DNA of 64,000 nt, from the NCBI GenBank assembly GCA_016931625.1, contig JAFGEK010000020.1, forward strand, positions 39,110-103,109. Direction: 5' to 3'. The DNA is from Deltaproteobacteria bacterium (GTDB taxonomy: Bacteria; Myxococcota; XYA12-FULL-58-9; JAFGEK01). Position 1 is the first letter of the stretch. The number at the start of each line of letters is the position of its first letter. The notes under the pieces were generated by a model that saw only the letters and a list, made by a program, of their open reading frames with translations, did not search any database and had not been told where the DNA came from. Positions 18,545-56,743 of the stretch are shown piece after piece. The position numbers and the translations under genes were made by a program.

Positions 18545-20228
18545 TTTTCATTTTTGTTGTTGAACCAATACGAATGTTGAATTTTCGTGTTATCAGTTTT
18601 TGGGTATCTTCTGTATTAATTCGTAAAATATGGTTACCTGGAGAAAGTTTTATTTTATTAATAGGCGTATTACCATAATACTTGCCATCAATAGCTACTT
18701 TGTTACCTGGTTTAGATGATAAAACAAAAAATCCAAATTGTGTTAGTTTGTCACTAGCTTCATCGAACGGATTTTCTTGATTTTCTAATTGTGCCAAGAG
18801 TGGATCAACTAATGGTGAAAGGGAAACATAGATGATTCTTGATTCTTTAGAAGATAACGTAACCGAAACGAAAGATTCTTGGTAGCCTTCTTTAGCAAGT
18901 TTAAATTCATAGGTAGTGTCAGTTTGAAGAGTGTTTATAGTTACCGGACTAATACCAATAATATGCTCGTCCTGAAATATTTGAGCACCAGCTGGTATTG
19001 TTGAAATTTTTAGTGATGCCAGAGGCGGTTGAGGTGGATTATATTCAACAATATGTACTGATGAAGGAGTCGTATATCTAAAATTTCGCCAGATTACTGC
19101 ACCAACAGTAATTAGTGCGATACTTATTATAGATATTAATATTAGTGTCAGTACTAAAATGTTTTTTTGCTTTTTATTTTGAAGTTTTATTTGCTGTTGC
19201 TGTATATTTACGCGTGTAGTTTCTTGAGTCGTAGCTTTCTTTTTATTTCGTGTCGCAAATGTAAATACTTCGTGTTCTTGCTCTAAGTGGTGTTCAAGTG
19301 GCGATTCAATAATGTTTTCTGGTAAGTGACGTTTGATATAATCAGCTAAGCAATCTTCTGATGCATCTTCTTCGTTTTCCTCAATATATTTTGCTAATGC
19401 TATAGCAACTTCTCTACAATTTGTATAACGCTGTTCACGGTCTCTTTTGAGCATTTTGCTAATTATAAAGTTAAGCTCATCTGGAACCGATGGATCTATA
19501 CTCTTAGGTGTTGATATATCACTTTGAGTCAGAATTTTAATAACTTCTGTATCTTCTTTATCTTTTAATAATCTTCTTCCGGTTACTAATTCCCATAGTA
19601 CAATCCCAAGTGAAAATTGGTCACTACGTCCATCAAGTTCTTTATTTAGAACTTGTTCTGGAGACATATACCTAAGTTTCCCTTTTACTAATTTTGAGCT
19701 TTTAATAGAGGTTTTATGAATTGCTTGAGCGATGCCGAAATCGACTACTTTGGTTACTCCATTGTGGTCGATCATAATATTTTGTAGACCTATATCACGG
19801 TGTACTACACCAAGTGGGTGTCCGTCTGTATCATGTGATTGATGTGCATGATGCAAAGCTAAAGCTGCTCCATGCACTATTTTTGCTGCTAAGTGGCGTG
19901 GCAAAGACTCATTATTACGAATAATTGCAGTCATTAGACGGGCTAAATTTTCGCCTCTAATAAATTCCATTGCAATTATATAGGTATCTTGCCAAGGGCC
20001 AACCTCATAAACTTCAACAATATTAGGGTGATGCAAAAAGGCAGCAACGCGTGCTTCGTCGAGAAACTGCTCAACATGACCAGATTCACGCGCTAAATTC
20101 GGAAGAAGGGTTTTAAGAATTATGAAACGTTCAGAATTATTGATGCCATTGGTTTGTCGAGCAAGAAAAATCTCACCCATTCCACCCACGGCTAGGCGTT
20201 TGATTACTTGGTATTTTCCGAATACCAA
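18537..20228 (-). CDS. Hanks-type Ser/Thr protein kinase with a transmembrane segment and two C-terminal PEGA-like domains. It is a paralog of the 3175 kinase.
   Basis: [33 protein letters not shown], a transmembrane helix ([24 protein letters not shown]), then PEGA-like segments ([13 protein letters not shown]..., [22 protein letters not shown]). Apparent TTG start. The 3' end overlaps the convergent hybrid-kinase gene by 8 nt. Confidence 0.85.
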
Positions 20229-20664
20229 ATTAGAGTCTTGTTTTAACGCTGCGGTAACAATAGCTATTACTCCAACCCTATTTTGCTCTATTCACCCTAT
20301 AACAATAATATTGCTAACCAAGATATCATGGAAAACATCGAATTGACAAATGAGTAATGCAACTACAGAAAATAATTTAGTTTTATGCGAGTTGCAAAAT
20401 TATATGAGTTAAAAAGTTATTTGCGCTAAATCATAAGATTTTTTATGCGGTTATAAATATGGGCGATCTTTCATTTTCATATAAATTTAATTCTGCTGGA
20501 TAATAGGCGTGATTTTTTTTCTGGTATTCATTTGGGGTATCTGACAAACTAGTAAGTCTTGGATATATATATGCGGTGGTCTAAGTAACGCGGTAATCTA
20601 TTTAATGTATATGGGGGAGTTGGTGTTTTTTATAATTTATTAACAGCAAACAGAATTTGAGGCT

Positions 20665-22779
20665 ATGCTTCATATTTTTAAGCCGCGAGCAGAGACAAAA
20701 GTCGCTCTCACTCCACATAAAGGTTCAATAAGACTATTTTCCTTTATGGCTATTAGAAATAAGCTACTTATCTTCAATTTAAGTATTATTATTATATTGG
20801 TAGGGTTATTTTCATTTATGGGGAGAGATTTTTATCGTATTGCTAATTTAACGGCTCAAGAACAAAGCATTCATGTAAAAATTAATAATGCAATACTTAG
20901 TTTGCGCGAAAATGCAGAAATCCCTTTAGCAGCCAAGGACAGTAAAACCCTTGAAGAATTATTACAGAGTTTTATAGGTGACCCTGATCTACTAGCAATA
21001 GGTCTTTTTGATAATGACGGCAAGTTAATGGCTAGCCTTGGCAATATTAATGCCTATGTCAAGTTTTTATCTTCAGCTAAATCTGGAACTAAGGTGTTCA
21101 TTGATGATGAAACATTAGGGGCTCGTCTCGATATAGGTGTTCAAGGTATAATTCTTGGCAGTACAATGGCAATATATACGCTTGAAAGAGTAAAAACCGC
21201 TCAACAGCATTTTGTGATGTTTTCTATTGTTATTGCAATAGCTGCTTTTATGACGATATTGCTATCGATTATTATAGGTCGAACAATAGTGCGACCTATT
21301 TATGAGCTAACTCGTATTACTAGTAATATTGTTGATCGTGGTGATTGGTCACAAGAAATTAATATTCGTGGTCATGACGAGATAGGGGTATTGGCGGCAA
21401 GTTTTGCAAAAATGGTAATGATGTTGCAACGTTTTCGTCAGACACTTAATGAATTGACATTGGGCATCACAAAAGTATCTGAACGTGTTTTAGCAATAGC
21501 TCGAAAAGTTGATGAAGGTTCAACATTGTTACAGTCTCGTGTTATCGAGACAGCAAATACAACTACTGAAATGTTAGATTCGTTGCATACTGTTGCTAAA
21601 AGTGTTGAAGTGCTGCAGGGAAATGCCGAGAATAGTGCAACTGCAAATTCACAGATGGTGACGGTAAATCAAAAAGTATCAACTCGTGTGCAAGAGATGG
21701 AGTCGTCAGTCAATTTAACTATGCGCGCTGTTGAACAATTGACCGAATCCATTGTTCAGATAGCGAATAGTATTGATCACCTTAACGTTTCGTTGGCTGA
21801 GACATCTTCTACTATTGTTGAGATGGATGCATCGATTGCTCAAGTTGGGGATAATGCTGGTGAAACTTCGTCATTAGCGCATGCAGTTTCAAATCATGCT
21901 CAAAACGGTGTAGTAGCTCTGGCTGCTACATTAGAGGGTGTTGACCGTGTGAAACTTTCATCTCAATCTGTTTCGGTTGCTTTTGAGAATTTAGATAAAC
22001 AGATTGGCAATGTTGGTGCTATGCTTGATGTCATTAATCAAATTGCTGACCAAACGAACTTGTTAGCGCTAAATGCTGCGATTATTGCTGCAAGTGCTGG
22101 TGAGCATGGTCGTGGTTTTGCTGTAGTCGCCGAAGAAATTAAAGTTTTAGCAATGAATACCCGTAATAAGACGCAAGATATTGCAACTGTAGTGCAAGAT
22201 ATAAAATCTAAATCTAGTGATGCTAAAAGCAGTATTGATATAAGTTTGCAAGAAGTCGACAATGCAGTAAGACTTGGCCTTCAAACTTCAGATGCCTTAG
22301 GTCTGATTTCATCTTCGGCAGATAAAGCCACTTCTATGGTGCGTCAGATAGCCGATGCTAGTTTAGAGCAGACAAAAAGTTCACGTCTTATTACGACAGC
22401 AACCCAACGTATAGTAAAATCGGTAGAAGAAATTTCATCTCGCTCTCGTGAACAATCGCAACGCTCAATTGAAATTCATGATATTGCCGAACGGATGCGC
22501 AACGTTGCATTGCAAGTACAAAAAGCCATTATTGAACAGATGCATGGCAGTGAGCAGATAGGTGATTCTGTTAATAGTATTACAGATATGGTTAAACATC
22601 TTAATGATAGTGAACGATTGCAAACTAGTGGTGCAGATCGTGTTTTACAATCAGTAAATGGTATTCGCCAAGTCGCTGATAGTCAACGCAGTGCAGCAAG
22701 CGAACTGCACCAAACAGTTGACTCACTAAATAAGCAGGCTGAAGTTCTTCACAAAGCGGTACGCGCTTTTCGTGCATAA
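20665..22779 (+). CDS. Methyl-accepting chemotaxis protein (two transmembrane helices, HAMP, MCP signalling domain)
   Basis: [33 protein letters not shown] is the highly conserved MCP signalling-domain core. Two N-terminal transmembrane helices flank a periplasmic region. The start is uncertain (20665 or 20746). Confidence 0.9.
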
Positions 22780-22878
22780 TATTTTTTAACGCTAAGATAA
22801 TTATTATTTACGGTGCAGTCAGAGGATGACTACGCTTAAGTAACGTTTTTTATAAACAGTATTTTTCAGGAGGACGCA

Positions 22879-23622
22879 GTGAACCACAAAATCTGTATGC
22901 CACGAATGCAACAGTATTGGGGGGTATCATTGCTGATACCTTTATTTGTATTGGCGGGGTGTGTTTATGATCCTGACGACCCTTGCGGTGAAGGTTTAGA
23001 ACTTAAAGATAGCGTCTGCGTTTGCCAACCAAACCACATTCCTGAAGAGGTTGGTCGTTGCATACCTTGCGGTGAATTTGAACAAGCCTTTAGCGATACC
23101 TGCGAATGTATTGAAGGCTATTTACGCAATAGTGAAGGCGTATGTGTTGTTAGTAAACAAGGCAAACCATGCAGTGCTACAGAACCATGTGATGATACAA
23201 TTTTTACTTATTGCCATTTGCTTGATGGTGGCAATGTTGGTTATTGCACCACACAAGGTTGTAGCAGCAATAATGACTGTTTAGGTAAATATACTTGTGA
23301 AACAAGAGTATCGCCTCAATACTGTATGAGACCAGCAACAGGATTAGGTAAGGCCTGCGATGGTCCTGATGGTTGTGCACAATATGAAGCTTGGAGTTGT
23401 GATTATTTTTTCGCCCATACCTGTCAAGTAGCTGCTTGTGATTTAGATGATATACTTGATTGTCCTCGCGGTTATGCCTGTTGTAGCTGGCCAAAACTTG
23501 TTGGAAATACTTATTTAAGTGCCGGTGGTACTAGAGGGATACCTACAAATTATTGTTACCCAGAATCGGCGATTAACGATAACGTTGACTTAGGCGCTGA
23601 ATGTGGCGCTGTAAATAAATGA
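22879..23622 (+). CDS. Secreted Cys-rich lipoprotein (about 30 Cys), family A
   Basis: Signal peptide with LAGC lipobox. Repeated NNDC...Y.C segments. It shares the [ND][ND]DC-x(4-8)-Y[TV]C motif with the 36105 ORF. Confidence 0.55.
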   Translation: MNHKICMPRMQQYWGVSLLIPLFVLAGCVYDPDDPCGEGLELKDSVCVCQPNHIPEEVGRCIPCGEFEQAFSDTCECIEGYLRNSEGVCVVSKQGKPCSATEPCDDTIFTYCHLLDGGNVGYCTTQGCSSNNDCLGKYTCETRVSPQYCMRPATGLGKACDGPDGCAQYEAWSCDYFFAHTCQVAACDLDDILDCPRGYACCSWPKLVGNTYLSAGGTRGIPTNYCYPESAINDNVDLGAECGAVNK

Positions 23623-23639
23623 AAGGTTGAAGTCACCCC

Positions 23640-25055
23640 ATGAAAACTACAAAGCTATTATCGTGCTTTGCATCTTTATTGGTGGCGGGCTTCGTTAATT
23701 TCGCCTTTAGCGATGGTGCAAATGCACAGGAAGACTCAGCTACTGGAAATGATGATGAAACGACATTATCAGAACCAGTTGATGAGCCAGTTGCAGAGCC
23801 AATTGCCACTGCTTCTGCTACAAAGAAAACCACAGATGCGGATGCCGCAGCAGCGGCTGCAGTTGCTACTGCAATGTTGGATACCTATCAGCCTATTACT
23901 GAAAAGCACTTAAGCATTTATGGCTTTGCTGATTTTACCTATCTTGATTGGTTTAAGATGCCGACGGATTTTAGGGGAAAGCAGTTAGCAGCATATCCAA
24001 CTTTTACGGTTGGTCATTTAAATGTTTATTTTGATGCAACTTTGGCACGACGCTGGCGTGCTCTTGCCGAAGTTCAATTTTTATATTTACCACACGGCAG
24101 TGATCGCGAAGATGTCGAAGAAGATGATTATCCGCGTTATAACAATGAAGTCTTTGATTATAATGAACCTGGCAAAGATGTTACCTGGAGCGGTATTTCC
24201 GTTGAACGTGTTTGGCTTGAATATCAAATAAGTGATTTGCTTAATATTAGAGCAGGGCAATTCCCCACACCAATTGGTATTTGGAACGTCGATCATAGTT
24301 CTTTGGTTATTATTAATGCATTTGCTCCGTATTTAATCCGTGCTGGTTTTTTTCCGCAAACCCAAACCGGCTTAGAATTATATGGCACCAAAGGCCTGGG
24401 CGATTTTTTGCTGGGCTATAACTTAACGGTTTCTAATGGTCGCGGGCCTATTGATACTTGGCGTGACCTTGATGAAAATAAAGCAGTTGGTGGTAGGTTA
24501 TATGGTCGAACTCGCCTTTTGGGTGAGCTAACATTAGGGGTATCGTTTTACAAAGGCCAATATACTGATCGCGATGCGCCAGAAACGCAAATGCAAGGTG
24601 ATAAAATAGTATCTTTAATTCCTATTCTTGAACAATACGACGAATTTACGATAGCTGCTGATCTTAAGTGGGAATATAAAGGAATACTTTTGCAAAGCGA
24701 AGCTATCTGGAATGAGCGCGCTTATACAAAACATGGCCGTCCTAACGGCAAAGGGTTTCAAGCTGGCATATTCCCACGAGATGGCCGTATGTTGAGTTAT
24801 TATGCTGTAGCTGGCTATCGCTTACCATGGCTACCACTTATGCCGTTTTATTCGTGGGAGCGTTATTTTGGTGGTTATGTATATGCTGGTTCAGGCTACA
24901 ATAGCATTATCATTCATAATCTAGGCTTAAATTATCGTATGCTACCTAACGCGGTTGCCAAAGTAGTATATGCAAACCATCATTTTGTTATGGATGATGG
25001 TAGCAATGAAGGTAGGCACGATGGCATTGAAATTCAACTTGCCTGGGGCTTCTAA
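23640..25055 (+). CDS. Outer-membrane beta-barrel protein (porin-like)
   Basis: Signal peptide, an acidic linker, alternating amphipathic beta-strand character, and the C-terminal ...IQLAWGF with a terminal Phe typical of OM barrels. Confidence 0.55.
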   Translation: MKTTKLLSCFASLLVAGFVNFAFSDGANAQEDSATGNDDETTLSEPVDEPVAEPIATASATKKTTDADAAAAAAVATAMLDTYQPITEKHLSIYGFADFTYLDWFKMPTDFRGKQLAAYPTFTVGHLNVYFDATLARRWRALAEVQFLYLPHGSDREDVEEDDYPRYNNEVFDYNEPGKDVTWSGISVERVWLEYQISDLLNIRAGQFPTPIGIWNVDHSSLVIINAFAPYLIRAGFFPQTQTGLELYGTKGLGDFLLGYNLTVSNGRGPIDTWRDLDENKAVGGRLYGRTRLLGELTLGVSFYKGQYTDRDAPETQMQGDKIVSLIPILEQYDEFTIAADLKWEYKGILLQSEAIWNERAYTKHGRPNGKGFQAGIFPRDGRMLSYYAVAGYRLPWLPLMPFYSWERYFGGYVYAGSGYNSIIIHNLGLNYRMLPNAVAKVVYANHHFVMDDGSNEGRHDGIEIQLAWGF

Positions 25056-25072
25056 GGAAAGGACAAGCACTA

Positions 25073-25558
25073 ATGAAAACGCGGAGTCACGCTATGATTG
25101 CGTTATTAAGTGCTCTGTTAGCAATTCTGCCGTTAGGTGTAGAAGCTAAGGCTGCCGAAAGTGCAAATGTGTTAGTAATAGTTGTTGGTAAAGATTCGCT
25201 ACTTACCAACATACCGTTTAACCAATTGCGCCGTTTATTCATGGCTGAAATTTCAGAAATTGATGGACAAAGGATGTTACCTTTTAATTACGAACCAGGT
25301 AATGATATTAGAGTCGTCTTCGATAAAATGGTTCTTAAGATGGACCCTGATGCAGTTGGGCGCTATTGGGTTGATCGGTTAATTCGTGGCCAAGGAAAAG
25401 CTCCACCGATTGTACGTTCTCCTGAACTTGCCTGTGCGGTTGTTGGTAAACTTAAAGGTGCAATTGTTTACCTACCAATAGATAAGGTAAATGATAGTGT
25501 GCGTGTTATTAGCGTTAATGGCAAAATGCCTAAGGATCAGGGGTATCCTTTACGTTAG
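25073..25558 (+). CDS. Small secreted protein with a PstS/PBP-like-2 type C-terminal pattern (..VNGKMP....GYPLR)
   Basis: Signal peptide. The end resembles the V-NG-V-P...YPL segment of phosphate-binding proteins. The resemblance is weak. Confidence 0.35.
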   Translation: MKTRSHAMIALLSALLAILPLGVEAKAAESANVLVIVVGKDSLLTNIPFNQLRRLFMAEISEIDGQRMLPFNYEPGNDIRVVFDKMVLKMDPDAVGRYWVDRLIRGQGKAPPIVRSPELACAVVGKLKGAIVYLPIDKVNDSVRVISVNGKMPKDQGYPLR

Positions 25559-25627
25559 CTAATAACTAAGCATCCTTACCCAGCAAGGGGTAGCGCTATT
25601 GTTGTTGGTACGCTACAAAGCAGAGGT

Positions 25628-26521
25628 ATGGCAATCATACCTCTTGCTTTAACACCTGGTGACGTTATCAGTGTTATCGCCCCTAGTGGCTGTTTTGACC
25701 ATGATGCTTTCACATCTGGAATAGAAATTCTCAGGCAAGCTGGTTTTCAAACACGTTATAATCAAGATATATTTGTATCACAGCAATATCTTGCTGGTAG
25801 TGATAGTAGACGTATTAATGAATTAAAAGCAGCATTAAATGAACCAGATATCAAAGCTATATGGGTTGCTAGAGGCGGTTATGGAGCTACACGAATAATA
25901 CCCCATATTTCAATAAATCAAATTGTAACTTCACCACGTTGGCTAATTGGTTTTTCTGACACGACTGCTTTACATTCTATATGGTCGCAAGCCAATATCG
26001 TATCTATACACGGTGCTAATATTACTACGTTAAAAACCTGGGATGAAAAAGCACGCCAAGAATTATTTCAATTGTTGAGTTGTCCCAAGCCCATAATCTA
26101 TCAGGGAGAAGTTATATCTGGTGGGCCAAGTTTTGTAAGAGGACGTTTATTAGGTGGTAATCTTACTGTTCTTGCAGCGATGAGTGGTACAGGCGTATAT
26201 GCAAATTTAGATGATTTTATTTTGATGATTGAAGATATTGGTGAACGACCCTATCGTCTTGATCGTAGTCTAACACAATTGCGATATTCTGGAGTGCTAA
26301 GTAAAGTTCGCGGTGTAGCTGTGGGGCAACTTACTAATTGTTGTGATCCAGGTAACGATAAAAATTCTGCATTACAAGCCATACTTAGTGCCTTAACAGA
26401 TATGCATTTACCTATTCTTGCGGGGCTGCCTTTTGGTCATGAACCGAGCGCGCGTGCGGTATTGCTTGGGGCACAAGCAGAATTAAATACACAAAACGCC
26501 ACGCTAACGGTGCAGCCATGA
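25628..26521 (+). CDS. ldcA: LD-carboxypeptidase (muramoyltetrapeptide carboxypeptidase, peptidase S66)
   Basis: GDVISVIAPSG..., GFSDTTAL (nucleophile Ser), ...PFGHEP (His). 297 aa, the typical size. Confidence 0.85.
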   Translation: MAIIPLALTPGDVISVIAPSGCFDHDAFTSGIEILRQAGFQTRYNQDIFVSQQYLAGSDSRRINELKAALNEPDIKAIWVARGGYGATRIIPHISINQIVTSPRWLIGFSDTTALHSIWSQANIVSIHGANITTLKTWDEKARQELFQLLSCPKPIIYQGEVISGGPSFVRGRLLGGNLTVLAAMSGTGVYANLDDFILMIEDIGERPYRLDRSLTQLRYSGVLSKVRGVAVGQLTNCCDPGNDKNSALQAILSALTDMHLPILAGLPFGHEPSARAVLLGAQAELNTQNATLTVQP

Positions 26522-27783
26522 ACGTAATGCAACAGCCTGAACCAACTGTTCCTGATATCGATCGTAGCATTCAAACAGGCATTTATAATAAAACTTTTTC
26601 TGCTGCAGCATGTATTGCTAGTGTGGGTAGCACAATTTTTCATCGTAGTGTGTACGGTTTAGTGTCACAACCACCACCTGTACGCCGTAGCGATTATAAT
26701 TTATTATTTGACCTTGGAGGATTAACTCAAGTTTTAGGCGCTGGATTAGCAGCACTATACCTTATTAGCAAAAACCGTTTAGATTTAGATATTCCACTTG
26801 ATCGTACCATACCTGAGTTTAAACATAGTCGTTTTAGCAAAATAACAGTTTCGATGCTGTTAGAACATTGTGCCGGATTTCCTTCGAGCAATGACCTATC
26901 AAATTATTTGCGCAAGCTCGATAATCGTCGTCCACCAGATAAACGTATTATTGGTACAAGTGCTGCTTTAGCGGAGCTTAAGCGGGTAGTCCCACAATTA
27001 AAATTATCATTTACACCTGGTAGTATGGTTACGGAGTCAGCGGTTAATAGCATGGTGCTTGGGTGGATCATTGAAGCGGTTACCGGAAAACCGCTTGATA
27101 TCTTTTTAGAACGTGAAATATTTAAACCTCTAGGGATTGCTGACCAAATATTTTTTGTGCGCCTATATGAAACTCATCATCCAATGCTTAGTGCTAAAAG
27201 GGTTTTTGCTGCGGGTGAGCAATGTCCATGGCGTAACAAATTGCTTCAAGGTGAAGTTAGTGATGCTACAGCATGGATAGCGGGTGGCGTTGCCGGTCAT
27301 GCTGGGCTTTTTGGCACAATTGATGCGGTATGGACTATTATCGATGCATTACAGCAAAGTTATCATGGTACGGGGCGCTTTTTTTTAGGTGGTGCAGTAA
27401 AACGTTTTTGGACTCGTTCAAAACGTTTAGCTTCTGCTACTCGCGCCTTAGCTTGGGATACCACAACTGTTAATAATCCCAAGGCAGGCAAACGGTTTTC
27501 TCAATCATCAGTTGGGCAAGTTGATCCATTAACTGGAGCGATTTGGATTGATCTAGCAAGTAAAATATCGGGAGTTTTCCTTGCTAATGGCAATCATCCT
27601 CGCGCAACTGACAAAATTGAAGCCATTGCTAAAATTCAATTAAGAGTATTTGAACTAATTGCCAAACACGGAGAGGCAATTTTACCACAGATCAATCAAG
27701 CAATGGGTTCAAAAGCTTTTTATGATTCATCAACTCAAGGCTCAGTGCAAACGTCTTCACCATATGGTGGCCGTCGTTATTAG
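26518..27783 (+). CDS. Beta-lactamase/transpeptidase-fold (class C beta-lactamase-related) protein with degenerate catalytic motifs, a probable pseudo-enzyme
   Basis: Fold motifs are present: FDLGGLTQVLGAGLAALYL (where FDLASLTKV is expected), LLEHCAGFP, AVNSMVLGWIIEAVTGKP, GHAGLFGT. The SxxK motif is GxxQ and the YxN motif is AxN. Translationally coupled to ldcA (ATGA overlap). Confidence 0.7.
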   Translation: MNVMQQPEPTVPDIDRSIQTGIYNKTFSAAACIASVGSTIFHRSVYGLVSQPPPVRRSDYNLLFDLGGLTQVLGAGLAALYLISKNRLDLDIPLDRTIPEFKHSRFSKITVSMLLEHCAGFPSSNDLSNYLRKLDNRRPPDKRIIGTSAALAELKRVVPQLKLSFTPGSMVTESAVNSMVLGWIIEAVTGKPLDIFLEREIFKPLGIADQIFFVRLYETHHPMLSAKRVFAAGEQCPWRNKLLQGEVSDATAWIAGGVAGHAGLFGTIDAVWTIIDALQQSYHGTGRFFLGGAVKRFWTRSKRLASATRALAWDTTTVNNPKAGKRFSQSSVGQVDPLTGAIWIDLASKISGVFLANGNHPRATDKIEAIAKIQLRVFELIAKHGEAILPQINQAMGSKAFYDSSTQGSVQTSSPYGGRRY

Positions 27784-27797
27784 GGGATGTCCCTGAA
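27780..27797. repeat. Variant copy of the TTAGGG-N5-CCCTAA motif (TTAGGGGATGTCCCTGAA), in the promoter region of mpl
   Basis: 14-15 of 17 positions match the 2571 copy. Intergenic, 40 nt upstream of the mpl start. Confidence 0.5.
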
Positions 27798-27834
27798 TTA
27801 GGTTTAAAAGGTTTTAAATTAGGAGATAGATGTT

Positions 27835-29250
27835 TTGAGTTATATTTATATGCTCGGCATTTGCGGCACTGGAGTGGGTGCCTTAGCAGGTTTACTTAAA
27901 CAATTAGGCCATGAAGTAGTTGGTAGCGATGAAAATGTTTATCCTCCCATGAGCGACAAACTAAGAGAATGGGGTATTCCCATTCTTAATGGTTATAACA
28001 TTGAGCATCTTAGCCGTCGTCCTGATTTGGTTGTTGTTGGTAATGTGATTAGGGCCAGCAATCCTGAGGCGATTTTTATACGCGAGCAAGGCATTAAACA
28101 AATGTCAATGCCTGCAGCTATTGCTGAGTTTGGTATTGGTGACCGTCATAGCATCGTCGTAGCCGGAACGCATGGTAAAACCACGGTAACGGCATTAATA
28201 GCTCATCTTTTACTAGCCGCTGGGCGTGATCCGTCTTATTTAATTGGTGGGGCATTAATTGGTTACCCAGAATCTTTTCGCATAACTAATAGTAAATTTT
28301 TTGTTATCGAAGGTGATGAATACGATACAGCATATTTTGATAAAGGACCGAAATTTGTTCATTATCGACCACGTACTGCAATAATCACCAGCCTTGAATT
28401 TGACCATGCTGATATCTTTGAAAATATTGCTGCAGTCGAAAAAGCTTTTGGCCGTCTTGTGCAAACCGTACCTGAAGATGGCCATTTAATAGTTTGGCAT
28501 GGCGCTACGCGTGCTCGCAAACAACTTGCATATGCTGGCAATAGGCATATTACGGTGTATGCTTTGCACCAACAAGATGGCGTAAATTTATATTTAAAAG
28601 AATATATTGATAGTCCAAATGGTCTTATTTTTACGCCAGTCTTTAATGGCGTTTCGCTTGGTTCTATGAATGCGCCATTGTGGGGTGAGGTTAGTGTGCA
28701 AAACGTTCTTGCGGCTATTGCCGCTACAATTGATGCTGGGCTTAATCGTGATGAGTTGGCGCATGGTTTTGCAACTTTTCGTGGGGTAAAGCGTCGCCTT
28801 GAGTTATTGGGTGAACCAAATGGTATAGCGGTAGTTGACGACTTTGGCCATCATCCAACTGCGGTTCGTATGACATTAAACGCTGCTAAGGTACGTTGGC
28901 CTAATCGTCGTTTATGGGCAGTATTTGAGCCGCGTTCAGCTACTGCTCGCAGAAATGTATTACAACACGAATATGTTGATGCTTTTCAAGATGCCGATAT
29001 GGTGGTGATTGCTAGTCATGAGCGTATGAATGAAATTCCTTACGCACAACGTTTTAATCCTCAGTTATTAGTACAGCAAATACAGAAAAAAGGGATAAAT
29101 GCGCGAGCTATCGCGCTAGTAGATGAAATTGCTAACACGATTTACAAAGAAGCAACTAGAGGCGATGTAATTATTTTGTTTTCAAATGGTTCTTTTGGGG
29201 GATTGCATATTAAAGTACTCAGTGATTTAGCGGCACGCCGGAATAAATAA
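27835..29250 (+). CDS. mpl: UDP-N-acetylmuramate:L-alanyl-gamma-D-glutamyl-meso-DAP ligase (murein peptide ligase)
   Basis: The N-terminus (M)SYIYMLGICGTGVGALAGLLKQLGHEVVGSDENVYPPMS matches Mpl (MRIHILGICGTFMGGLA...GSDANVYPPMS). Mur-ligase body. TTG start with AGGAG 9 nt upstream. Confidence 0.85.
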   Translation: MSYIYMLGICGTGVGALAGLLKQLGHEVVGSDENVYPPMSDKLREWGIPILNGYNIEHLSRRPDLVVVGNVIRASNPEAIFIREQGIKQMSMPAAIAEFGIGDRHSIVVAGTHGKTTVTALIAHLLLAAGRDPSYLIGGALIGYPESFRITNSKFFVIEGDEYDTAYFDKGPKFVHYRPRTAIITSLEFDHADIFENIAAVEKAFGRLVQTVPEDGHLIVWHGATRARKQLAYAGNRHITVYALHQQDGVNLYLKEYIDSPNGLIFTPVFNGVSLGSMNAPLWGEVSVQNVLAAIAATIDAGLNRDELAHGFATFRGVKRRLELLGEPNGIAVVDDFGHHPTAVRMTLNAAKVRWPNRRLWAVFEPRSATARRNVLQHEYVDAFQDADMVVIASHERMNEIPYAQRFNPQLLVQQIQKKGINARAIALVDEIANTIYKEATRGDVIILFSNGSFGGLHIKVLSDLAARRNK

Positions 29251-30084
29251 ATGACTACTAAAGACCAAATTTATAAAGATGCTGTTGTTATTGCAAAAGG
29301 CGCAGGCAATATTTTACGTGATGCATTTGGTAATACTCGCACCATTAAATATAAAGGTAGTATTGATTTAATAACCGATGCTGATCGTGCTTCTGAAAAA
29401 TATATATTAACCGAAATACATAAGCGCTATAAAGAGCATGCAATTTTTGCTGAAGAGAGTGGTGATAATCAAAAAGATGGCCCTTGGCGCTGGGTAATTG
29501 ACCCACTTGATGGCACAACTAATTTTGCCCATGGGGTACCATACTATGCTGTACTTATAACCGTACAAGAACGTATAGCCCCCAATAAATATGCAAGTAG
29601 CATTGCGATTACTTATGACCCATCACGCGATGAGTTGTTTGTTGCTAATAAGAACACAGGAGCAACACTAAATGGTAAACCTATATCGGTATCAGATGTA
29701 GGTAGACTCATTGAGTCATTACCTGCTACTGGTTTTGCTTATGACCGTATTGATAACCCTGATGATAATCATGCTGAATTTTGTCGTTTAAATTTACTAA
29801 CTCAAGGTGTGCGTCGTTGTGGCTCTGCAGGATTAGATCTTGCTTATGTCGCATGTGGTCGTTTCGATGCTTTTTGGGAATATCGACTCAATCTTTGGGA
29901 TATTGCAGGTGGCATTCTTTTAGTGTCTGAAGCTGGTGGTAAAATATCAACATTGCAAGGTAACCCACTTCAATCAGAGTCACTTGATATTGTAGTAAGC
30001 AATGGATATATTCATGAAGAGTTATTACAGGCCTTACGAAAATCTCGGCAGCTGCCGATTGGTTCTCGTGAAAATTTAACATAG
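29251..30084 (+). CDS. Inositol-monophosphatase family protein (SuhB-like)
   Basis: WVIDPLDGTTNFAHGVPYYAV and GSAGLDLAYVACGRFDAFWE are IMPase signatures. Confidence 0.85.
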   Translation: MTTKDQIYKDAVVIAKGAGNILRDAFGNTRTIKYKGSIDLITDADRASEKYILTEIHKRYKEHAIFAEESGDNQKDGPWRWVIDPLDGTTNFAHGVPYYAVLITVQERIAPNKYASSIAITYDPSRDELFVANKNTGATLNGKPISVSDVGRLIESLPATGFAYDRIDNPDDNHAEFCRLNLLTQGVRRCGSAGLDLAYVACGRFDAFWEYRLNLWDIAGGILLVSEAGGKISTLQGNPLQSESLDIVVSNGYIHEELLQALRKSRQLPIGSRENLT

Positions 30085-30128
30085 CAAAAAGATAGTGATT
30101 TAAAGAAAAATTATTAAGGAAAGTAGTT

Positions 30129-31343
30129 ATGCAATTACGCGATTTTAAAGCTCGTAAAGTTACTGATGATGTTATGTGGGTTGGGGCAATTGATTGGGAC
30201 CGTCGGATATTTGACGAACTAATACCACTTCCTGATGGCACCAGTTATAATTCTTATTTAATTCGTGGTTCTAAGCACACAGCGCTTATCGATACAGTTG
30301 ATCCAGCAAAAACCGAAGTTATGCTTAGTCGCATAAAGAGTACTGGTATTGAGAAAATTGACTATATTATTGCTAATCATGCCGAGCAGGACCATTCTGG
30401 CTCAATACCTATAGTGATTGAGCAACATAAAGAAGCCAAGGTGGTAGTTACTGAGAAGTGTAAAGGGATGCTTTGTGATCTATTGCATATAGATGCTGAG
30501 CGTATGTTAGTTGTTAAAGATGGTGATACTATCGATCTTGGTGGCCTCACTCTTCAATTCATTCATTTCCCATGGGTGCATTGGCCCGAGACCATGTTAA
30601 CGTGGTTGCCTGAGCGCGCAGTACTTTTTTCTTGCGATTTGTTTGGATCACATCTCGCCACAGGTGATTTATTTGCCGACAGCCAAGCTGATGTTTTATT
30701 GGGTGCCAAGCGTTATTATGCTGAAATAATGATGCCTTTTCGCAGCAATATTAATAAGCAACTTGCAAAAATAAATGATTTAGAAATTAGTTACATTGCA
30801 CCAAGCCATGGACCAATTTTTAATATACCCAATTTTATTACTGATGCTTATCTTGATTGGGTAAGTTCGCCGCCACGTAATTTAGTTGTAGTGCCGTACA
30901 TTTCAATGCATGACAGTACTCGTCAGATGGTTGAGTATTTTGTTGATGGCATGGCTCGACGCGGTATTTGTACTGAGCAAATTAATTTAGGCGACGGTGA
31001 TATTGGTAAGCTAGCAATGCTTTTAGTAGATGCAGCTACAGTCGTAGTTGGTTCGCCTATGGTTCTTATGGGGGCGCATCCAAAAGTAGTATATGCGGCA
31101 TATCTATTGAATATATTGAGACCTAAATTGCTGCATTTATCTATTCTTGGGTCATTTGGTTGGGGTGGTAAACTCGTCGAGCAACTTCTAGGAGTTATGC
31201 CAAATATCAAAGCCGAAGTGTTACCACCGGTATTATGCAAAGGCGCACCCAAAGCCGATGATTTCGCAGCGATAGATGCATTAGTGGCAGCTATTAGCGA
31301 ACGTCATGCTGCATTATCAAATAAGCTAACACGAAAATCTTAA
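30129..31343 (+). CDS. Flavodiiron protein (FprA family: metallo-beta-lactamase-like domain plus flavodoxin-like domain)
   Basis: N-terminal MBL-like domain with HAEQDHSG (the H-x-E-x-D-H di-iron motif), then a flavodoxin-like C-terminus. 404 aa. Confidence 0.8.
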   Translation: MQLRDFKARKVTDDVMWVGAIDWDRRIFDELIPLPDGTSYNSYLIRGSKHTALIDTVDPAKTEVMLSRIKSTGIEKIDYIIANHAEQDHSGSIPIVIEQHKEAKVVVTEKCKGMLCDLLHIDAERMLVVKDGDTIDLGGLTLQFIHFPWVHWPETMLTWLPERAVLFSCDLFGSHLATGDLFADSQADVLLGAKRYYAEIMMPFRSNINKQLAKINDLEISYIAPSHGPIFNIPNFITDAYLDWVSSPPRNLVVVPYISMHDSTRQMVEYFVDGMARRGICTEQINLGDGDIGKLAMLLVDAATVVVGSPMVLMGAHPKVVYAAYLLNILRPKLLHLSILGSFGWGGKLVEQLLGVMPNIKAEVLPPVLCKGAPKADDFAAIDALVAAISERHAALSNKLTRKS

Positions 31344-31423
31344 AAATTTACAAGAAATTGTTACTGATCGAATTTACTTTAGTGACTACTACAGCGGTTT
31401 CTTTACTTTTTTCATGATACTTA

Positions 31424-31440
31424 TTAAGGGGTGTCCCTAA
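31424..31440. repeat. Copy of the TTAGGG-N5-CCCTAA motif (TTAAGGGGTGTCCCTAA), in the promoter region of the dapA-like gene
   Basis: 16 of 17 positions match the 2571 copy. Intergenic. Confidence 0.5.
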
Positions 31441-31549
31441 TTAAATGCTGTTTTTTTAGTGCTACATGTTTGTATTTCTTGTTATATGTGTTGTTGTGTT
31501 AAGGTTAGACAACGCTGTAAATTTTGCAAGAAAGTAAAAGAGAAACGTT

Positions 31550-32467
31550 ATGACAATGCGTGAATTAAAAGGGATGATTGTTCCAAATATTACGCCATTT
31601 AAAAATGATGCTGCGCGTAGTCTCGATCTCGAAAGAATAGATAAATTAGTAGACTTCATCATTGATAAACAAAACGCTGATGCAATAATCGCTGTTGGAA
31701 CCACCGGCGAATCAACGTCATTGTCACATGATGAAAAAGAAGTGGTAATTTTACGCACATTGAAAGCTGTTAAGGAGCGAGTACCGGTACTGGCTGCAAC
31801 TGGTAGCGCTAATACACAAGAAGCTATTGCAATGACGCAGTTTTGCGAGCGTTCAGGTATTGCTGGTGTGCTTTTAGTATCGCCATATTATATCCGCCCT
31901 AATCAAGATGGTTTGTATCAACATTTTTCGGCAGTGGCACAAAATACTAAGTTACCGATAATACTGTATAACCATCCTGGTAGAACCGGCGTTTCAATTC
32001 AAGTTGATACCCTTATTCGTCTAGCGCAACGTTATGAAAATATAATCGGTATTAAAGATTGTCCAAATAATTTAGCTCTTTCTACTGATGTAGCCCGACG
32101 TTGTCGCTCTGAATTAGGCCGTTCATTTTCATTTTTAACCGGTGAAGATGAGTTTATTTATATGAATATTTGTCTTGGGGGCGATGGGGCGATTGCGGCT
32201 TCTGGACACTTATTAGGCAATGAAATTAAGCAAATGATAGACCTTTTTAACAAAGGTCAAGTTGAACAAGCGCGTAAATTGCAATTTATGATTACTGATT
32301 TAATACGTATGCTTTTTGTAATGCCTAGTCCAGCCCCACTTAAAGCTGCACTCGATATTTTGACAGAAGGCGAGGAGCTTGGTGGTCCAGTACGTTTGCC
32401 ATTAGTAGATGCACCTGAAGATCTGAAACAAAAACTTAAAATTGAATTAGCTCGCGTTAAAGGCTAA
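31550..32467 (+). CDS. Dihydrodipicolinate synthase family class I aldolase (DapA-like)
   Basis: AIIAVGTTGESTSLSHDEK, VLLVSPYY, GIKDC (the Schiff-base Lys context). About 305 aa. Confidence 0.75.
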   Translation: MTMRELKGMIVPNITPFKNDAARSLDLERIDKLVDFIIDKQNADAIIAVGTTGESTSLSHDEKEVVILRTLKAVKERVPVLAATGSANTQEAIAMTQFCERSGIAGVLLVSPYYIRPNQDGLYQHFSAVAQNTKLPIILYNHPGRTGVSIQVDTLIRLAQRYENIIGIKDCPNNLALSTDVARRCRSELGRSFSFLTGEDEFIYMNICLGGDGAIAASGHLLGNEIKQMIDLFNKGQVEQARKLQFMITDLIRMLFVMPSPAPLKAALDILTEGEELGGPVRLPLVDAPEDLKQKLKIELARVKG

Positions 32468-32582
32468 TTGCATTATTATAACGATTTTTCTTATTGTCAG
32501 TCGTTTTTTACTAGTACTGCACTGCGTCGTTAAGTTTTGTTGCAGTTGACACCAATACTGCGGCTCAGATACAGCCTGTAGA

Positions 32583-33473
32583 GTGAATCTTTTTGATTTA
32601 GCTGTTAGAGCAATAGATATTGCTAGTAAGGTTAAAGCAACCTTTAATACGGTGATGGCGCCTAGTGCCGAGTTAGAACAGCGCATTGATCGCATTCCTG
32701 CACAGTTAGGTCAATCAGGTGTAGATGCTTTTGGTTTTGACCCTCAGTACCTTAAGAAAGTTTTTGGCCTAGCTGTTTGGTTTTATCGTAGTTATTTCCG
32801 TGCTCAAGCTTTTGGTATTGAAAATATTCCTGATGGACGTTGTTTTATTGTAGCTAATCATTCTGGCCAATTGCCGTTTGATGCTGCAATGCTTACTGTT
32901 GCGGCTTTTGTAGAACGAGAGCCACCACGCTATTTGCGTGCAATGTTAGATCGATTCATACCATCAACACCTTTTGTGTCAGTATTTTTAGCCAGATGTG
33001 GACAAATTTTGGGTACTCAAGAGAACTGTAAACGATTGCTAGAAGCCCAAGAAGCAATATTAGTTTTTCCAGAAGGTGTTAAAGGACTTAACAAAACATG
33101 GGATGCACGCTATCAACTACAACGTTTTGGCAGTGGATTTATACGACTGGCGCTTGAGACAAATACTCCGATAATACCAACGATTGTAATTGGTGCTGAA
33201 GAGCAAGCGCCTGCTTTTGCTAATCTTGAATGGGTTGGAAAATTATTAGGTATTCCTGCATTACCCGTAACACCTTTCCACCCCTTAATCCCAGGTCTTG
33301 GTTTATTCCCAATGCCAACGCGCTATCGTATTTATTTTGGTAAACCACTTAATTTTTCAGGTGATGCAAATGATGATGATACGATTATTAGCGAAAAAGT
33401 TGAGCAAGTAAAACAAACCATGCAACAAATGATTACGGCTGGTTTATCCCAACGCGAGCATGTCTTTTGGTGA
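32583..33473 (+). CDS. Lysophospholipid/glycerolipid acyltransferase (PlsC-like, HX4D)
   Basis: VANHSGQLPFD (HX4D) and VFPEGV (the EGTR-like block). GTG start. Confidence 0.65.
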   Translation: MNLFDLAVRAIDIASKVKATFNTVMAPSAELEQRIDRIPAQLGQSGVDAFGFDPQYLKKVFGLAVWFYRSYFRAQAFGIENIPDGRCFIVANHSGQLPFDAAMLTVAAFVEREPPRYLRAMLDRFIPSTPFVSVFLARCGQILGTQENCKRLLEAQEAILVFPEGVKGLNKTWDARYQLQRFGSGFIRLALETNTPIIPTIVIGAEEQAPAFANLEWVGKLLGIPALPVTPFHPLIPGLGLFPMPTRYRIYFGKPLNFSGDANDDDTIISEKVEQVKQTMQQMITAGLSQREHVFW

Positions 33474-33497
33474 GGTTTAAAAAAAAGGTAGGTATAA

Positions 33498-34436
33498 ATG
33501 CGTATTTTACTCACCGGCAGCTCGGGTCGCTTGGGGCGGCGGGTGGCATTAAAGTTACACCGCAATCATTACGTAGTGGGTATTGATTCACGACCTCCTA
33601 ATTGTTTCCCGATTGAAATCGAGAATCATCAAATTGATTTACGTAGACGAACTGCTGAAAATATTTTGAAAGAAGGAAAATTTGATGCAGTAATGCATAT
33701 GGGGGTTACGCACAATTTTCGTTTCTCTAACGAAGAGCATTATACACGCAATATTTTTAGTACTGAGAAATTGCTACAGTTGATAGTAAAATACCACATC
33801 AAAAAATTAGTACTGCTTTCTTCTGGTGATGTTTATGGGCCAATAGCGACTAATAGTCATTTTATTGATGAAGACGCACCATTAATGGCAAGCCAATCGT
33901 CAACTGGCATGCGCACTTTAGTTGCTGTAGATCGAGCTGTGCAATCATTTTTTTGGCGTCATAATGAAATCGAAACCGTTATTTTAAGGCCTTGTCATAT
34001 AGTTGGTCCACATGTACGAAATGCTGCTTCAAAATATTTAAGGCTCAATATTGTACCCACTTTAATGGGATACGATCCCATGCTGCAGCTTATTAGCGAA
34101 GAAGATTTGTTGCCTTTAGTCGAAAATGCTCTAATGCCAGGTGTTCGTGGAGTGTTTAATTTGGCAGGCACTGAACCGGTTCCGCTGCATTATATATTAA
34201 AAATATTAAATAAGCCGACTTTGCCTCTCCCTTATGTGGTTTTGAAAACTTTTTTAGAACATGCTTTTAAATCACGTATGGTGTCTTTTGCACCACCCGA
34301 GCTTGATCATATACGCTTTAATGCCGTACTAGACACTCGTCGTTCTCAAGAAGTGCTTGGCGCAAAAATTACGCGTTTTCTTGAAAAAATACTCAAACCT
34401 TTTAAAGCTGGAAGTTTATATCCAGGTAGTAGTTAA
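33498..34436 (+). CDS. NAD-dependent epimerase/dehydratase (SDR-fold)
   Basis: MRILLTGSSGRLGRRVA is a Rossmann GxxGxxG motif. About 310 aa. Confidence 0.7.
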   Translation: MRILLTGSSGRLGRRVALKLHRNHYVVGIDSRPPNCFPIEIENHQIDLRRRTAENILKEGKFDAVMHMGVTHNFRFSNEEHYTRNIFSTEKLLQLIVKYHIKKLVLLSSGDVYGPIATNSHFIDEDAPLMASQSSTGMRTLVAVDRAVQSFFWRHNEIETVILRPCHIVGPHVRNAASKYLRLNIVPTLMGYDPMLQLISEEDLLPLVENALMPGVRGVFNLAGTEPVPLHYILKILNKPTLPLPYVVLKTFLEHAFKSRMVSFAPPELDHIRFNAVLDTRRSQEVLGAKITRFLEKILKPFKAGSLYPGSS

Positions 34437-34462
34437 TTTTAGTACTAGCTTACGGCTAACCA

Positions 34463-56563: not shown

Positions 56564-56743
56564 ACATATACTCCAAAAACGATGTCTCGCAATGTTCGTT
56601 TTTACTTAGTTAGTAAAATCAAACAACCGCAATCACATAATTATATTGTATCGTGTTATTTAACATAAGGCATGTTATATACGCAAAAATAGATAACTAA
56701 ATGTTTTAAATAGGAAAGCTAAAATTATATTATTTGTACAGTG

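What the first reader, a model, noticed from the sequence alone, without database searches (positions are those of the whole stretch)
26518..27783. Catalytically degenerate beta-lactamase/PBP-fold protein translationally coupled to ldcA, inside a peptidoglycan-recycling gene set
The protein keeps the fold landmarks of class-C-beta-lactamase-related serine hydrolases: FDLxxLTxV...L, LLxHxxGxP, ...N.....G.IIE.V.G.P, GHxG.FGT. But the nucleophile motif SxxK reads G-L-T-Q, and the YxN motif reads A-V-N. Ser, Lys and Tyr are all absent.

Its start codon overlaps the ldcA stop (ATGA), and mpl follows 50 nt downstream.

This looks like a pseudo-hydrolase retained as a binding or regulatory partner in murein-peptide recycling (ldcA, this gene, mpl, with nagZ 7 kb away). 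Alternatively it could be a muropeptide sensor.
Basis: partly seen in the sequence, partly recalled or inferred. Interest (0 to 1): 0.5.

Follow-up and report, generated by a model that had tools for sequence, protein, structure and literature searches.

The report
Dead PBP4B-like protein in murein-recycling operon
A cytoplasmic penicillin-binding-protein-like gene wedged between two cell-wall-recycling enzymes has lost every catalytic residue yet is still kept by selection, so it probably now works by binding rather than by cutting.

Summary
The ORF at 26518..27783 is real. It is a class-C/S12 beta-lactamase-fold protein whose closest named relative is E. coli PBP4B (YfeW).

All three canonical motifs are gone. 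The true H-x-G box reads Q-V-D. The kept 'GHAGLFGT' is a family turn, not motif 3.

The gene sits in an ldcA-X-mpl triplet. That triplet is conserved across several phyla, and there X keeps S, K, Y and H.

Degeneration is confined to one Myxococcota/'Deltaproteobacteria' MAG lineage, where 28 of 83 close relatives are degenerate. It arose at least four or five times independently, always at the same operon position.

Degenerate orthologue pairs give dN/dS of about 0.09, as low as mpl and lower than ldcA. About 70% of the family-conserved sites are retained, and the lost ones cluster on the active-site motifs.

So this is a selected pseudoenzyme, not decay or a sequencing error. A binding or adaptor role towards muropeptides or LdcA/Mpl is inferred, not shown.

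The ancestral activity is also inferred: an AmiE-like MurNAc-L-Ala amidase or a PBP4B-like DD-carboxypeptidase.

The parts
26518..27783 (+). X: cytoplasmic PBP4B/AmiE-related beta-lactamase-fold pseudoenzyme (421 aa). Former catalytic positions read G68, Q71, E173, A175, S248, Q334, D336.
   Evidence: Pfam PF00144, 103 bits. NCBIfam PBP4B, 96 bits, far below the 385 cut-off. hhalign of the family against YfeW, E 3.9e-46. BLASTP against YfeW, 28% over 320 aa. AF2 pLDDT 91.5. Foldseek finds the class C/S12 fold. Motif tables.
26719..26730 (+). Former motif 1 (S-x-x-K), now G68-L-T-Q71.
   Evidence: Aligned to EstB S75..K78, YfeW S-N-T-K and family A-S-L-T-K.
27034..27042 (+). Former motif 2 (Y-S-D, equivalent to Y-x-N), now E173-S-A175.
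27517..27525 (+). Former motif 3 (H-L-G, equivalent to K-T-G), now Q334-V-D336.
   Evidence: hhalign against AmpC (K-T-G) and YfeW (H-T-G). BLASTP. Table.
27283..27318 (+). Retained, nearly invariant family signature G-G-V-A-G-H-A-G-L-F-G-T (256-267). By the AmpC alignment it is an Omega-loop-like wall of the pocket.
   Evidence: Four of its residues (G257, G260, G263, F265) are invariant across all 120 homologues and the rest are at least 90% conserved. Kept in degenerate forms. Aligns to AmpC '..AEAYGVKST'.
25628..26521 (+). ldcA-like LD-carboxypeptidase. Catalytic Ser/Glu/His are intact. Its stop codon overlaps the X start (ATGA).
   Evidence: Peptidase_S66 N and C domains. NF008424, 160 bits. 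Alignment to 6uuk keeps GxSDxT, EDIxE and PFGH.
27835..29250 (+). mpl-like UDP-MurNAc:tripeptide ligase, with GTHGKTT P-loop.
   Evidence: TIGR01081, 372.5 bits against a 388.7 cut-off, and three Mur ligase Pfam domains. Sequence.
34463..35596 (-). nagZ-like GH3 beta-N-acetylglucosaminidase, part of the syntenic neighbourhood.
   Evidence: PF00933, 269.5 bits. GH3 lies at the same relative place in L082 and L086.

Best explanation
X is the positional orthologue of a widespread cytoplasmic PBP4B/AmiE-related serine hydrolase encoded between ldcA and mpl.

In the window's Myxococcota-type lineage this protein has lost the nucleophile Ser, the general-base Lys, the Tyr, the H-x-G box and a family-specific His. 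It therefore cannot carry out acyl-enzyme hydrolysis.

The rest of the fold, and the Omega-loop-like pocket wall (GGVAGHAGLFGT, D249, R239, W313/D314, W343/D345, N357), are kept under strong purifying selection.

The most likely mode of action is non-catalytic. It would be co-expressed with LdcA and Mpl and would bind the murein peptide or MurNAc-peptide, or LdcA/Mpl themselves. In that way it would escort, sequester or gate the flow of recycled stem peptide into UDP-MurNAc-tripeptide.

This second, binding role probably already existed in the active ancestor. That would explain why catalysis could be lost repeatedly once another enzyme made it redundant.

Shown: homology, complete loss of the catalytic motifs, orthologous position, recurrence, and purifying selection in sister degenerate lineages.

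Inferred: cytoplasmic location (no signal peptide), ligand or partner binding, and the ancestral activity (MurNAc-L-Ala amidase as in AmiE, or DD-carboxypeptidase as reported for PBP4B).
For: Catalytic loss:
-.
- The former catalytic positions vary freely inside the degenerate clades. In the query's own clade position 71 is Q/R/C/G and position 334 is Q/H/E.

Orthology and context:
- The ldcA-X-mpl-suhB-acyltransferase-epimerase(-nagZ) order is shared by degenerate and active close relatives.
- 35 of 80 distant loci from Desulfobacterota, Binatia, Nitrospinota, Entotheonella and others have ldcA, mpl or both adjacent to X: 25 have both (one in the reverse order, mpl-X-ldcA), 8 ldcA only and 2 mpl only. 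All 80 keep S, K, Y, D and H-x-G.

Recurrence:
- Monophyly of all degenerate sequences: 0 of 200 bootstraps.
- Degenerate P0005 is sister to active P0006 (100%).
- Degenerate P0045 is sister to active P0048 (97.5%).
- Degenerate clade C is sister to active P0075 (94%).

Selection:
- dN/dS is 0.092, 0.092 and 0.088 for three degenerate-degenerate pairs. In the same genome pairs ldcA gives 0.14-0.16 and mpl 0.09-0.13.
- 85 of 119 conserved sites are retained. The lost sites are concentrated on and around the active-site motifs and H248; some scattered sites are lost too.

Other:
- Confident fold model, pLDDT 91.5.
- No signal peptide, whereas YfeW has one.
- LdcA and Mpl next door are catalytically intact.
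Against: - No direct evidence of ligand or partner binding.
- dN/dS was measured in three other degenerate clades, not on the query's own branch. Its nearest relative is only 57% identical.
- Glu at the former Tyr position recurs in several independent clades, which could hint at new chemistry.
- The phylogeny backbone is weakly supported, so the number of independent losses is a lower-bound estimate from a few well-supported nodes.
- I could not check whether these genomes carry an AmpD-type amidase or a second, active copy.
Confidence: 0.6

Rival explanations
1. X is still an enzyme. The pocket has been rebuilt around new residues, for example Glu173 activating water or another nucleophile, and it acts on a murein-derived substrate by a mechanism without an acyl-enzyme intermediate.
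For: - Glu replaces Tyr173 in at least four separately placed groups (A1, A2, P0036, P0005, P0054).
- A67G and K71Q also recur.
- The pocket wall GGVAGHAGLFGT and D249 stay invariant.
- Purifying selection is strong.
Against: - No replacement residue is shared by all degenerate clades. Position 173 is E/V/P/Q/I/A, position 71 is Q/R/C/M/L/G/A/V and position 334 is Q/H/E/F/L/A/M/T.
- These positions vary even within a clade, which is not how catalytic residues behave.
- All three motifs are hit at once.
Confidence: 0.12
2. X is a muropeptide sensor or regulator. Its output goes to something other than LdcA/Mpl, for example control of cell-wall synthesis or a stress response through a protein partner, in the manner of inactive hydrolase homologues used as regulators.
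For: - Same data as for the binding model: a retained pocket wall and purifying selection.
- Neighbouring loci of relatives carry FHA-GGDEF signalling genes directly upstream of ldcA.
Against: - X is a single-domain protein with no signalling or DNA-binding module.
- The conserved linkage is to ldcA and mpl, not to regulators. The FHA-GGDEF neighbour is absent from the window.
Confidence: 0.15
3. X is a functionless relic on its way to loss. It survives only because it lies inside an operon, for example to preserve translational coupling or spacing for mpl.
For: - Catalysis is lost repeatedly.
- Degenerate sequences are somewhat more divergent: mean pairwise identity is 0.52 against 0.57 among active ones.
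- In L083/L090 mpl has been separated from X by a 4.5-kb insertion.
- L084/L092 lack ldcA upstream.
Against: - dN/dS of about 0.09 over dS of 0.85-1.2 in three degenerate pairs, equal to or lower than the flanking enzymes.
- Intact ORFs of about 400-440 codons in all 28 degenerate sequences.
- By my reading of the per-site lists printed, 97 of the 119 family-conserved residues are still present in the query.
Confidence: 0.06
4. Sequencing or assembly artefact, or a mis-alignment that hides a displaced S-x-x-K elsewhere.
For: The sequence comes from a MAG.
Against: - The identical protein is in two independent sources.
- Seven separate motif positions are changed.
- Four independent alignments (EstB, S12 peptidase, YfeW, AmpC) agree on the register.
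- 'ASVGS' upstream is conserved in active members too and lacks Lys.
Confidence: 0.01

Closest known systems
E. coli PBP4B (YfeW), NCBIfam NF002968
   Same: - Closest named relative: hhalign of the family against YfeW gives E 3.9e-46 over 334 columns, and BLASTP gives 28% over 320 aa.
- Same family-specific signatures besides the three canonical motifs: G-x-V-H-D-x-x-A and G-G-V-[AS]-G-H-A-G-L-F.
- Also encoded in a murein-sugar recycling operon, murQ-murP-yfeW (PMC5061867).
   Different: - YfeW has a signal peptide and intact S-N-T-K, Y-S-D and H-T-G.
- It is reported as a low-affinity PBP with DD-carboxypeptidase activity (PMC5061867, citing Vega and Ayala 2006).
- X has no signal peptide, lies between ldcA and mpl, scores 96 bits against a cut-off of 385, and lacks all catalytic residues.
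[quoted passage not shown]
   Same: - A PF00144 beta-lactamase-fold protein (PMC10653849, Table 1).
- It works in muropeptide recycling next to NagZ, freeing the stem peptide from MurNAc (PMC8054146, PMC5061867).
- That is the step needed to feed LdcA and Mpl. It is the best functional precedent for the active ancestors of X.
   Different: - AmiE is secreted and catalytically active, and is encoded in murQ-murR-murP-amiE-nagZ-namZ.
- X is cytoplasmic, dead and linked to ldcA/mpl.
AmpD (Amidase_2, anhMurNAc-L-Ala amidase) of the classical AmpG-NagZ-AmpD-LdcA-Mpl pathway
   Same: It occupies the pathway step between NagZ and LdcA/Mpl that the active X family could plausibly fill. This is inference from gene order and from the established E. 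coli pathway.
   Different: - Unrelated zinc-amidase fold.
- No Amidase_2 gene was found among the 41 window proteins scanned.
- Its presence elsewhere in the genome could not be checked.
Catalytically inactive cell-wall hydrolase homologues used as regulators: degenerate LytM factors EnvC/NlpD, which activate amidases, and mycobacterial CwlM, a cytoplasmic inactive amidase homologue that regulates MurA (from my own knowledge, not tested here)
   Same: The same evolutionary logic: a peptidoglycan hydrolase fold that has lost its catalytic residues but is conserved and acts through binding.
   Different: - Different folds (LytM, Amidase_3) and different partners.
- For X, neither a partner nor an effect has been shown.

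Membership tests
Pfam PF00144 Beta-lactamase / MEROPS S12 class-C-like fold | Significant full-length profile match | tested here: met
   103 bits against a gathering score of 27, residues 26-372 on profile positions 14-326 of 329.
Pfam PF00144 Beta-lactamase / MEROPS S12 class-C-like fold | Three-dimensional fold | tested here: met
   AF2 model pLDDT 91.5, pTM 0.89. Foldseek hits the macrolactin acyltransferase, EstB, R61 DD-peptidase, ClbP and AmpC at E 1e-16 to 1e-18, target-normalised TM-score 0.56-0.76, 16-20% identity.
Pfam PF00144 Beta-lactamase / MEROPS S12 class-C-like fold | Motif 1, S-x-x-K (nucleophile and general base) | tested here: not met
   G68-L-T-Q71.
Pfam PF00144 Beta-lactamase / MEROPS S12 class-C-like fold | Motif 2, Y-x-N (Y-S-D in this subfamily) | tested here: not met
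   E173-S-A175.
Pfam PF00144 Beta-lactamase / MEROPS S12 class-C-like fold | Motif 3, K/H-T/S-G on strand beta3 | tested here: not met
   Q334-V-D336, aligned to AmpC K-T-G and YfeW H-T-G.
PBP4B (YfeW) equivalog NF002968 | Score at or above the curated cut-off | tested here: not met
   96.1 bits against 385.
PBP4B (YfeW) equivalog NF002968 | Shared subfamily signatures (V-H-D and GGV[AS]GHAGLF) | tested here: met
   hhalign E 3.9e-46. The query keeps GGVAGHAGLF and D249 but has V-S-D in place of V-H-D.
PBP4B (YfeW) equivalog NF002968 | Exported protein (signal peptide) | tested here: not met
   YfeW begins MKRTMLYLSLLAVSCSVSAA. X begins MNVMQQPEPTVPDIDRS and has no hydrophobic leader. No dedicated signal-peptide predictor was run.
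PBP4B (YfeW) equivalog NF002968 | Penicillin binding / DD-carboxypeptidase activity | not testable with these tools
   Needs biochemistry. The absence of Ser68 makes acylation impossible in principle.
AmiE (YbbE) MurNAc-L-Ala amidase | PF00144 domain protein in a muropeptide-recycling gene set with nagZ | tested here: inconclusive
   PF00144 is present. nagZ is 6.7 kb away on the other strand, not adjacent. AmiE is listed under PF00144 in PMC10653849.
AmiE (YbbE) MurNAc-L-Ala amidase | Direct sequence orthology to B. subtilis AmiE | not tested
AmiE (YbbE) MurNAc-L-Ala amidase | Amidase activity on MurNAc-peptides | not testable with these tools
   Biochemistry is required. The catalytic residues are missing in X.
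Unnamed 'ldcA-X-mpl' cytoplasmic hydrolase family | Gene located between ldcA and mpl, with a tight junction to ldcA | tested here: met
   Window. Close relatives. 25 distant loci have both neighbours (one in the reverse order) and 10 more have one. Junctions of -4, -1 or under 40 nt.
Unnamed 'ldcA-X-mpl' cytoplasmic hydrolase family | Intact S, K, Y, D and H-x-G | tested here: not met
   Every full-length X in the 80 distant loci is intact (the one other exception is a truncated ORF), while the query is not.
Pseudoenzyme (operational definition) | Homologue of active enzymes that lacks essential catalytic residues | tested here: met
Pseudoenzyme (operational definition) | Maintained by purifying selection after the loss | tested here: met
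   dN/dS 0.088-0.092 in three degenerate pairs. 85 of 119 conserved sites are kept. Not measurable on the query's own branch.
Pseudoenzyme (operational definition) | Demonstrated non-catalytic function | not testable with these tools
   Needs binding, interaction and genetic experiments.

The most novel reading that the evidence does not exclude
ldcA-X-mpl defines a widespread, so far undescribed cytoplasmic recycling module. In it a PBP4B/AmiE-type serine hydrolase takes the place of AmpD by freeing the stem peptide from MurNAc.

In one Myxococcota lineage this enzyme has repeatedly turned into a pseudoenzyme. The dead form acts as a peptide-binding escort or gatekeeper for LdcA/Mpl. That would make it a beta-lactamase-fold counterpart of EnvC/NlpD/CwlM-type dead hydrolase regulators.
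Probability: 0.3. Interest if true: 0.7.

Novelty: new variant of a known kind. Interest (0 to 1): 0.55.

Why it matters
Peptidoglycan recycling is well mapped only in a few Proteobacteria and Firmicutes.

The data point to a conserved third partner of LdcA and Mpl in many other phyla, a cytoplasmic PBP4B/AmiE-like protein. I found no published description of it.

The data also show that one lineage has repeatedly dispensed with its chemistry while keeping the protein. That gives a natural set of matched active and dead orthologues. They could be used to ask two questions: what PBP4B-type proteins really do, which is still unclear even in E. coli, and what non-catalytic job a penicillin-binding fold can have inside the cytoplasm.

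There is also a practical point. These genes are annotated as 'serine hydrolase' or 'D-Ala-D-Ala carboxypeptidase', and for the degenerate forms that is wrong.

Tried and rejected
It was useful for context, but it could not show whether genomes with a dead X also carry an active paralogue or an AmpD.
- Model coordinates were not exposed, so retained and lost sites could not be mapped in 3D.
- The Litzinger 2010 AmiE paper (PMC2901692) is not held. The AmiE sequence could not be obtained, so AmiE orthology is untested.
- The promoter/terminator scan of 20000..36500 gave counts no better than shuffles and defines no operon boundary.
- Literature searches for a described ldcA-X-mpl protein or a pseudo-PBP4B found nothing relevant.
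- Rejected: 'GHAGLFGT' as motif 3.
- Rejected: A-V-N as motif 2.
- Rejected: 'SVGSTIF' as an alternative nucleophile site. The segment is conserved in active members too and has no Lys.
- Rejected: the ATGA overlap as a special feature of the dead form. Active relatives have it too.
- Rejected: a single ancestral loss (0 of 200 bootstraps).
- The 50%-cluster representative search added about 15 more degenerate representatives, but no context is available for them.
Full report
**Observation**

The 421-codon ORF at 26518..27783 (+) is present. Its ATG overlaps the TGA of the preceding gene as ATGA.

- The upstream gene has both LD-carboxypeptidase (Peptidase_S66) domains. It keeps the Ser, Glu and His of solved LdcA structures.
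- The downstream gene is an Mpl-type Mur ligase. It scores 372 bits on TIGR01081, just below the 388.7 cut-off, has three Mur ligase domains and a GTHGKTT P-loop.
- A GH3 NagZ-type gene lies 6.7 kb further on, on the minus strand.

X itself matches Pfam PF00144 over almost its whole length at 103 bits. An AlphaFold model built on 120 homologues is confident (pLDDT 91.5). The model matches class C beta-lactamases, R61 DD-peptidase, EstB, ClbP and related S12-fold proteins at only 16-20% identity. No close relative has a solved structure.

**Catalytic motifs**

Independent alignments to EstB, an S12 peptidase, E. coli YfeW and E. coli AmpC agree on the register.

| Motif | Active family | Query |
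|---|---|---|
| 1 (S-x-x-K) | A-S-L-T-K | G68-L-T-Q71 |
| 2 (Y-x-N) | Y-S-D | E173-S-A175 |
| 3 (K/H-T/S-G) | V-G-H-L-G-F-T-G | V-G-Q334-V-D-P-L-T-G |
| Family-specific His | G-E-V-H-D | Ser248 |

- Motif 2 is not A-V-N. That reading is two residues out of register.
- 'GHAGLFGT' (260-267), taken as the third box, is a different element. It is nearly invariant and shared with YfeW as GGVSGHAGLF. Against AmpC it aligns with the Omega-loop segment around Tyr221.

The protein is therefore more thoroughly disarmed than the finding stated.

This is not an error. The identical protein occurs in an NCBI MAG and in an independent Logan assembly.

**What family it belongs to**

The best named relative is PBP4B (YfeW).
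- The NCBIfam score is 96 bits, far below the equivalog cut-off of 385.
- A profile of the family aligns to YfeW with E 3.9e-46 over 334 columns, and all subfamily signatures are shared.

X differs from YfeW in location and context.
- YfeW has a signal peptide. X and its relatives do not, so X is most likely cytoplasmic, like LdcA and Mpl.
- In E. coli, yfeW closes the murQ-murP operon (PMC5061867).
- In B. subtilis, the PF00144 protein AmiE (YbbE) sits in the equivalent murQ-murR-murP-amiE-nagZ-namZ operon. [quoted passage not shown]
- I could not obtain the AmiE sequence, so its orthology to X is a lead, not a test.

**Context across genomes**

A scan of GTDB species genomes returned 80 distant relatives at 27-36% identity.
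- In 25 of them X is flanked by both ldcA and mpl (in one, L050, in the reverse order mpl-X-ldcA). In 10 more it is flanked by one of the two.
- These come from Desulfobacterota, Myxococcota, Binatia, Nitrospinota, Entotheonella and a spirochaete MAG.
- ldcA-X junctions of -4, -1 or a few tens of bases are common.
- In all 80 loci X keeps S, K, Y, D and H-x-G (one truncated ORF apart). Only the extra His varies.

So there is a conserved ldcA-X-mpl module with a catalytically competent X. I found no paper describing it.

Gene order and the AmiE precedent suggest the active X frees the stem peptide from MurNAc, which is the AmpD step. That would let LdcA trim the peptide and Mpl re-ligate it. 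A DD-carboxypeptidase role, turning pentapeptide into tetrapeptide ahead of LdcA, is the alternative, as reported for PBP4B. Both are inferences.

**The degenerate lineage**

Among the 83 full-length close relatives (38-57% identity, all Myxococcota or 'Deltaproteobacteria bacterium' MAGs):
- 55 carry the full S/K/Y/H set.
- 28 lack at least two of these residues.

The dead forms are positional orthologues, not stray paralogues. The order ldcA-X-mpl-suhB-acyltransferase-epimerase, often with nagZ nearby, holds for dead X in L001, L082, L086 and L091; in active L085 mpl and suhB lie 7 kb downstream of X.

There are variants:
- L083/L090 have a 4.5-kb insertion before mpl.
- L084/L092 lack ldcA upstream.

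I built a neighbour-joining tree with the active-site columns removed and ran 200 bootstraps.
- The dead forms were never monophyletic.
- Dead P0005 is sister to active P0006 (100%).
- Dead P0045 is sister to active P0048 (97.5%).
- P0030 lies outside that pair (86%).
- Dead clade C is sister to active P0075 (94%).

This implies at least four or five independent losses. The backbone of the tree is weak, so the exact number is open.

The 50%-cluster library added about 15 further degenerate representatives.

**Selection**

Three pairs of dead orthologues, each pair sharing the dead state, give dN/dS of 0.092, 0.092 and 0.088 at dS 0.85-1.2. In the same genome pairs ldcA gives 0.14-0.16 and mpl 0.09-0.13.

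Of 119 sites at least 90% conserved in active relatives, 85 stay conserved in dead ones. The lost sites are chiefly:
- A67, S68, K71
- Y173, D175, G177, F178
- T233, E234, C236
- H248
- H334, L335, G336, T338, S341

By my reading of the per-site lists printed, the query itself keeps 97 of the 119.

The former catalytic positions vary even within clades. That argues against a rebuilt active site at the same place. However, Glu at position 173, Gln at 71 and Gly at 67 recur.

**Interpretation**

X here is a bona fide pseudoenzyme of the PBP4B/AmiE-related S12 fold. It is kept in a murein-peptide recycling operon.

Recurrent loss with continued constraint is most simply explained in two steps:
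- The protein has a second, non-catalytic job, binding the peptide or MurNAc-peptide or docking to LdcA/Mpl.
- Catalysis became redundant in this lineage.

The retained Omega-loop-like wall and several invariant Arg, Trp and Asp residues fit ligand binding. Without coordinates or experiments this remains inference.

Rivals are listed separately: new chemistry, a sensor with another output, a relic, or an artefact. The relic and artefact explanations are essentially excluded and 6/10.

The 41 window proteins I scanned against Pfam contain no AmpD-type amidase, no AmpG and no second PF00144 gene. The rest of the genome could not be examined.

**Verdict**

The finding is real and somewhat stronger than stated. 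Two motif assignments are corrected.

It is a new variant of a known kind: a dead member of a hydrolase family acting in peptidoglycan metabolism. It sits inside a conserved module that itself appears uncharacterised.

Interest is moderate. The mechanism is unproven, but matched active and dead orthologues make it directly testable.

Noticed in passing
window 22879..25558 (+): Three tightly spaced genes with no Pfam match lie directly upstream of ldcA on the same strand.
- A Cys-rich lipoprotein with an L-A-G-C lipobox (247 aa).
- A 471-aa secreted protein ending in ...AWGF, which looks like an outer-membrane beta-barrel.
- A 161-aa secreted protein.

They may be co-transcribed with ldcA-X-mpl. 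They are not conserved upstream of ldcA in relatives, where FHA-GGDEF or other genes sit instead.
   Followed up: partly
L083 11228..15555 and L090 6827..11178: In degenerate clade C a 4.5-kb minus-strand block has been inserted between X and mpl. It carries a U-box protein, a caspase-like Peptidase_C14 and an ECF sigma factor, and it splits the otherwise conserved triplet.
   Followed up: no
L082 8182..9087, L083 8161..9087, L090 3735..4667: An FHA-GGDEF (diguanylate cyclase) gene lies immediately upstream of ldcA in two degenerate clades, ending at the base where ldcA begins. It is absent from the window.
   Followed up: no
window 30129..31343 (+): An ODP/metallo-beta-lactamase-fold gene (404 aa) and a DHDPS-family gene (31550..32467) sit between the suhB-like gene and the acyltransferase in the window. 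In relatives (L082, L086) suhB is followed directly by the acyltransferase.
   Followed up: no
window 56027..61027 (-): A chaperone-usher cluster: three SCPU (spore coat protein U) domain proteins, an usher (794 aa) and a PapD-like chaperone.
   Followed up: no
window 54188..55987 (+) and 46703..50218 (-): Two unusual proteins: a PilZ domain fused to a sigma-54 activator (599 aa), and a 1171-aa protein with MopE-type metal-binding motifs.
   Followed up: no
L002-L081 and P0186-P0257: - In distant, otherwise intact relatives the family-specific His of G-E-V-H-D is often D/E/S/Q/N, so it is not strictly required for an intact motif set.
- The representative search also shows the X-like domain at the C-terminal end of 700-1600-aa multidomain proteins.
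   Followed up: no
window 37144..41399 (+): Two large adjacent ORFs (774 and 645 aa) have no Pfam match at E <= 0.001.
   Followed up: no
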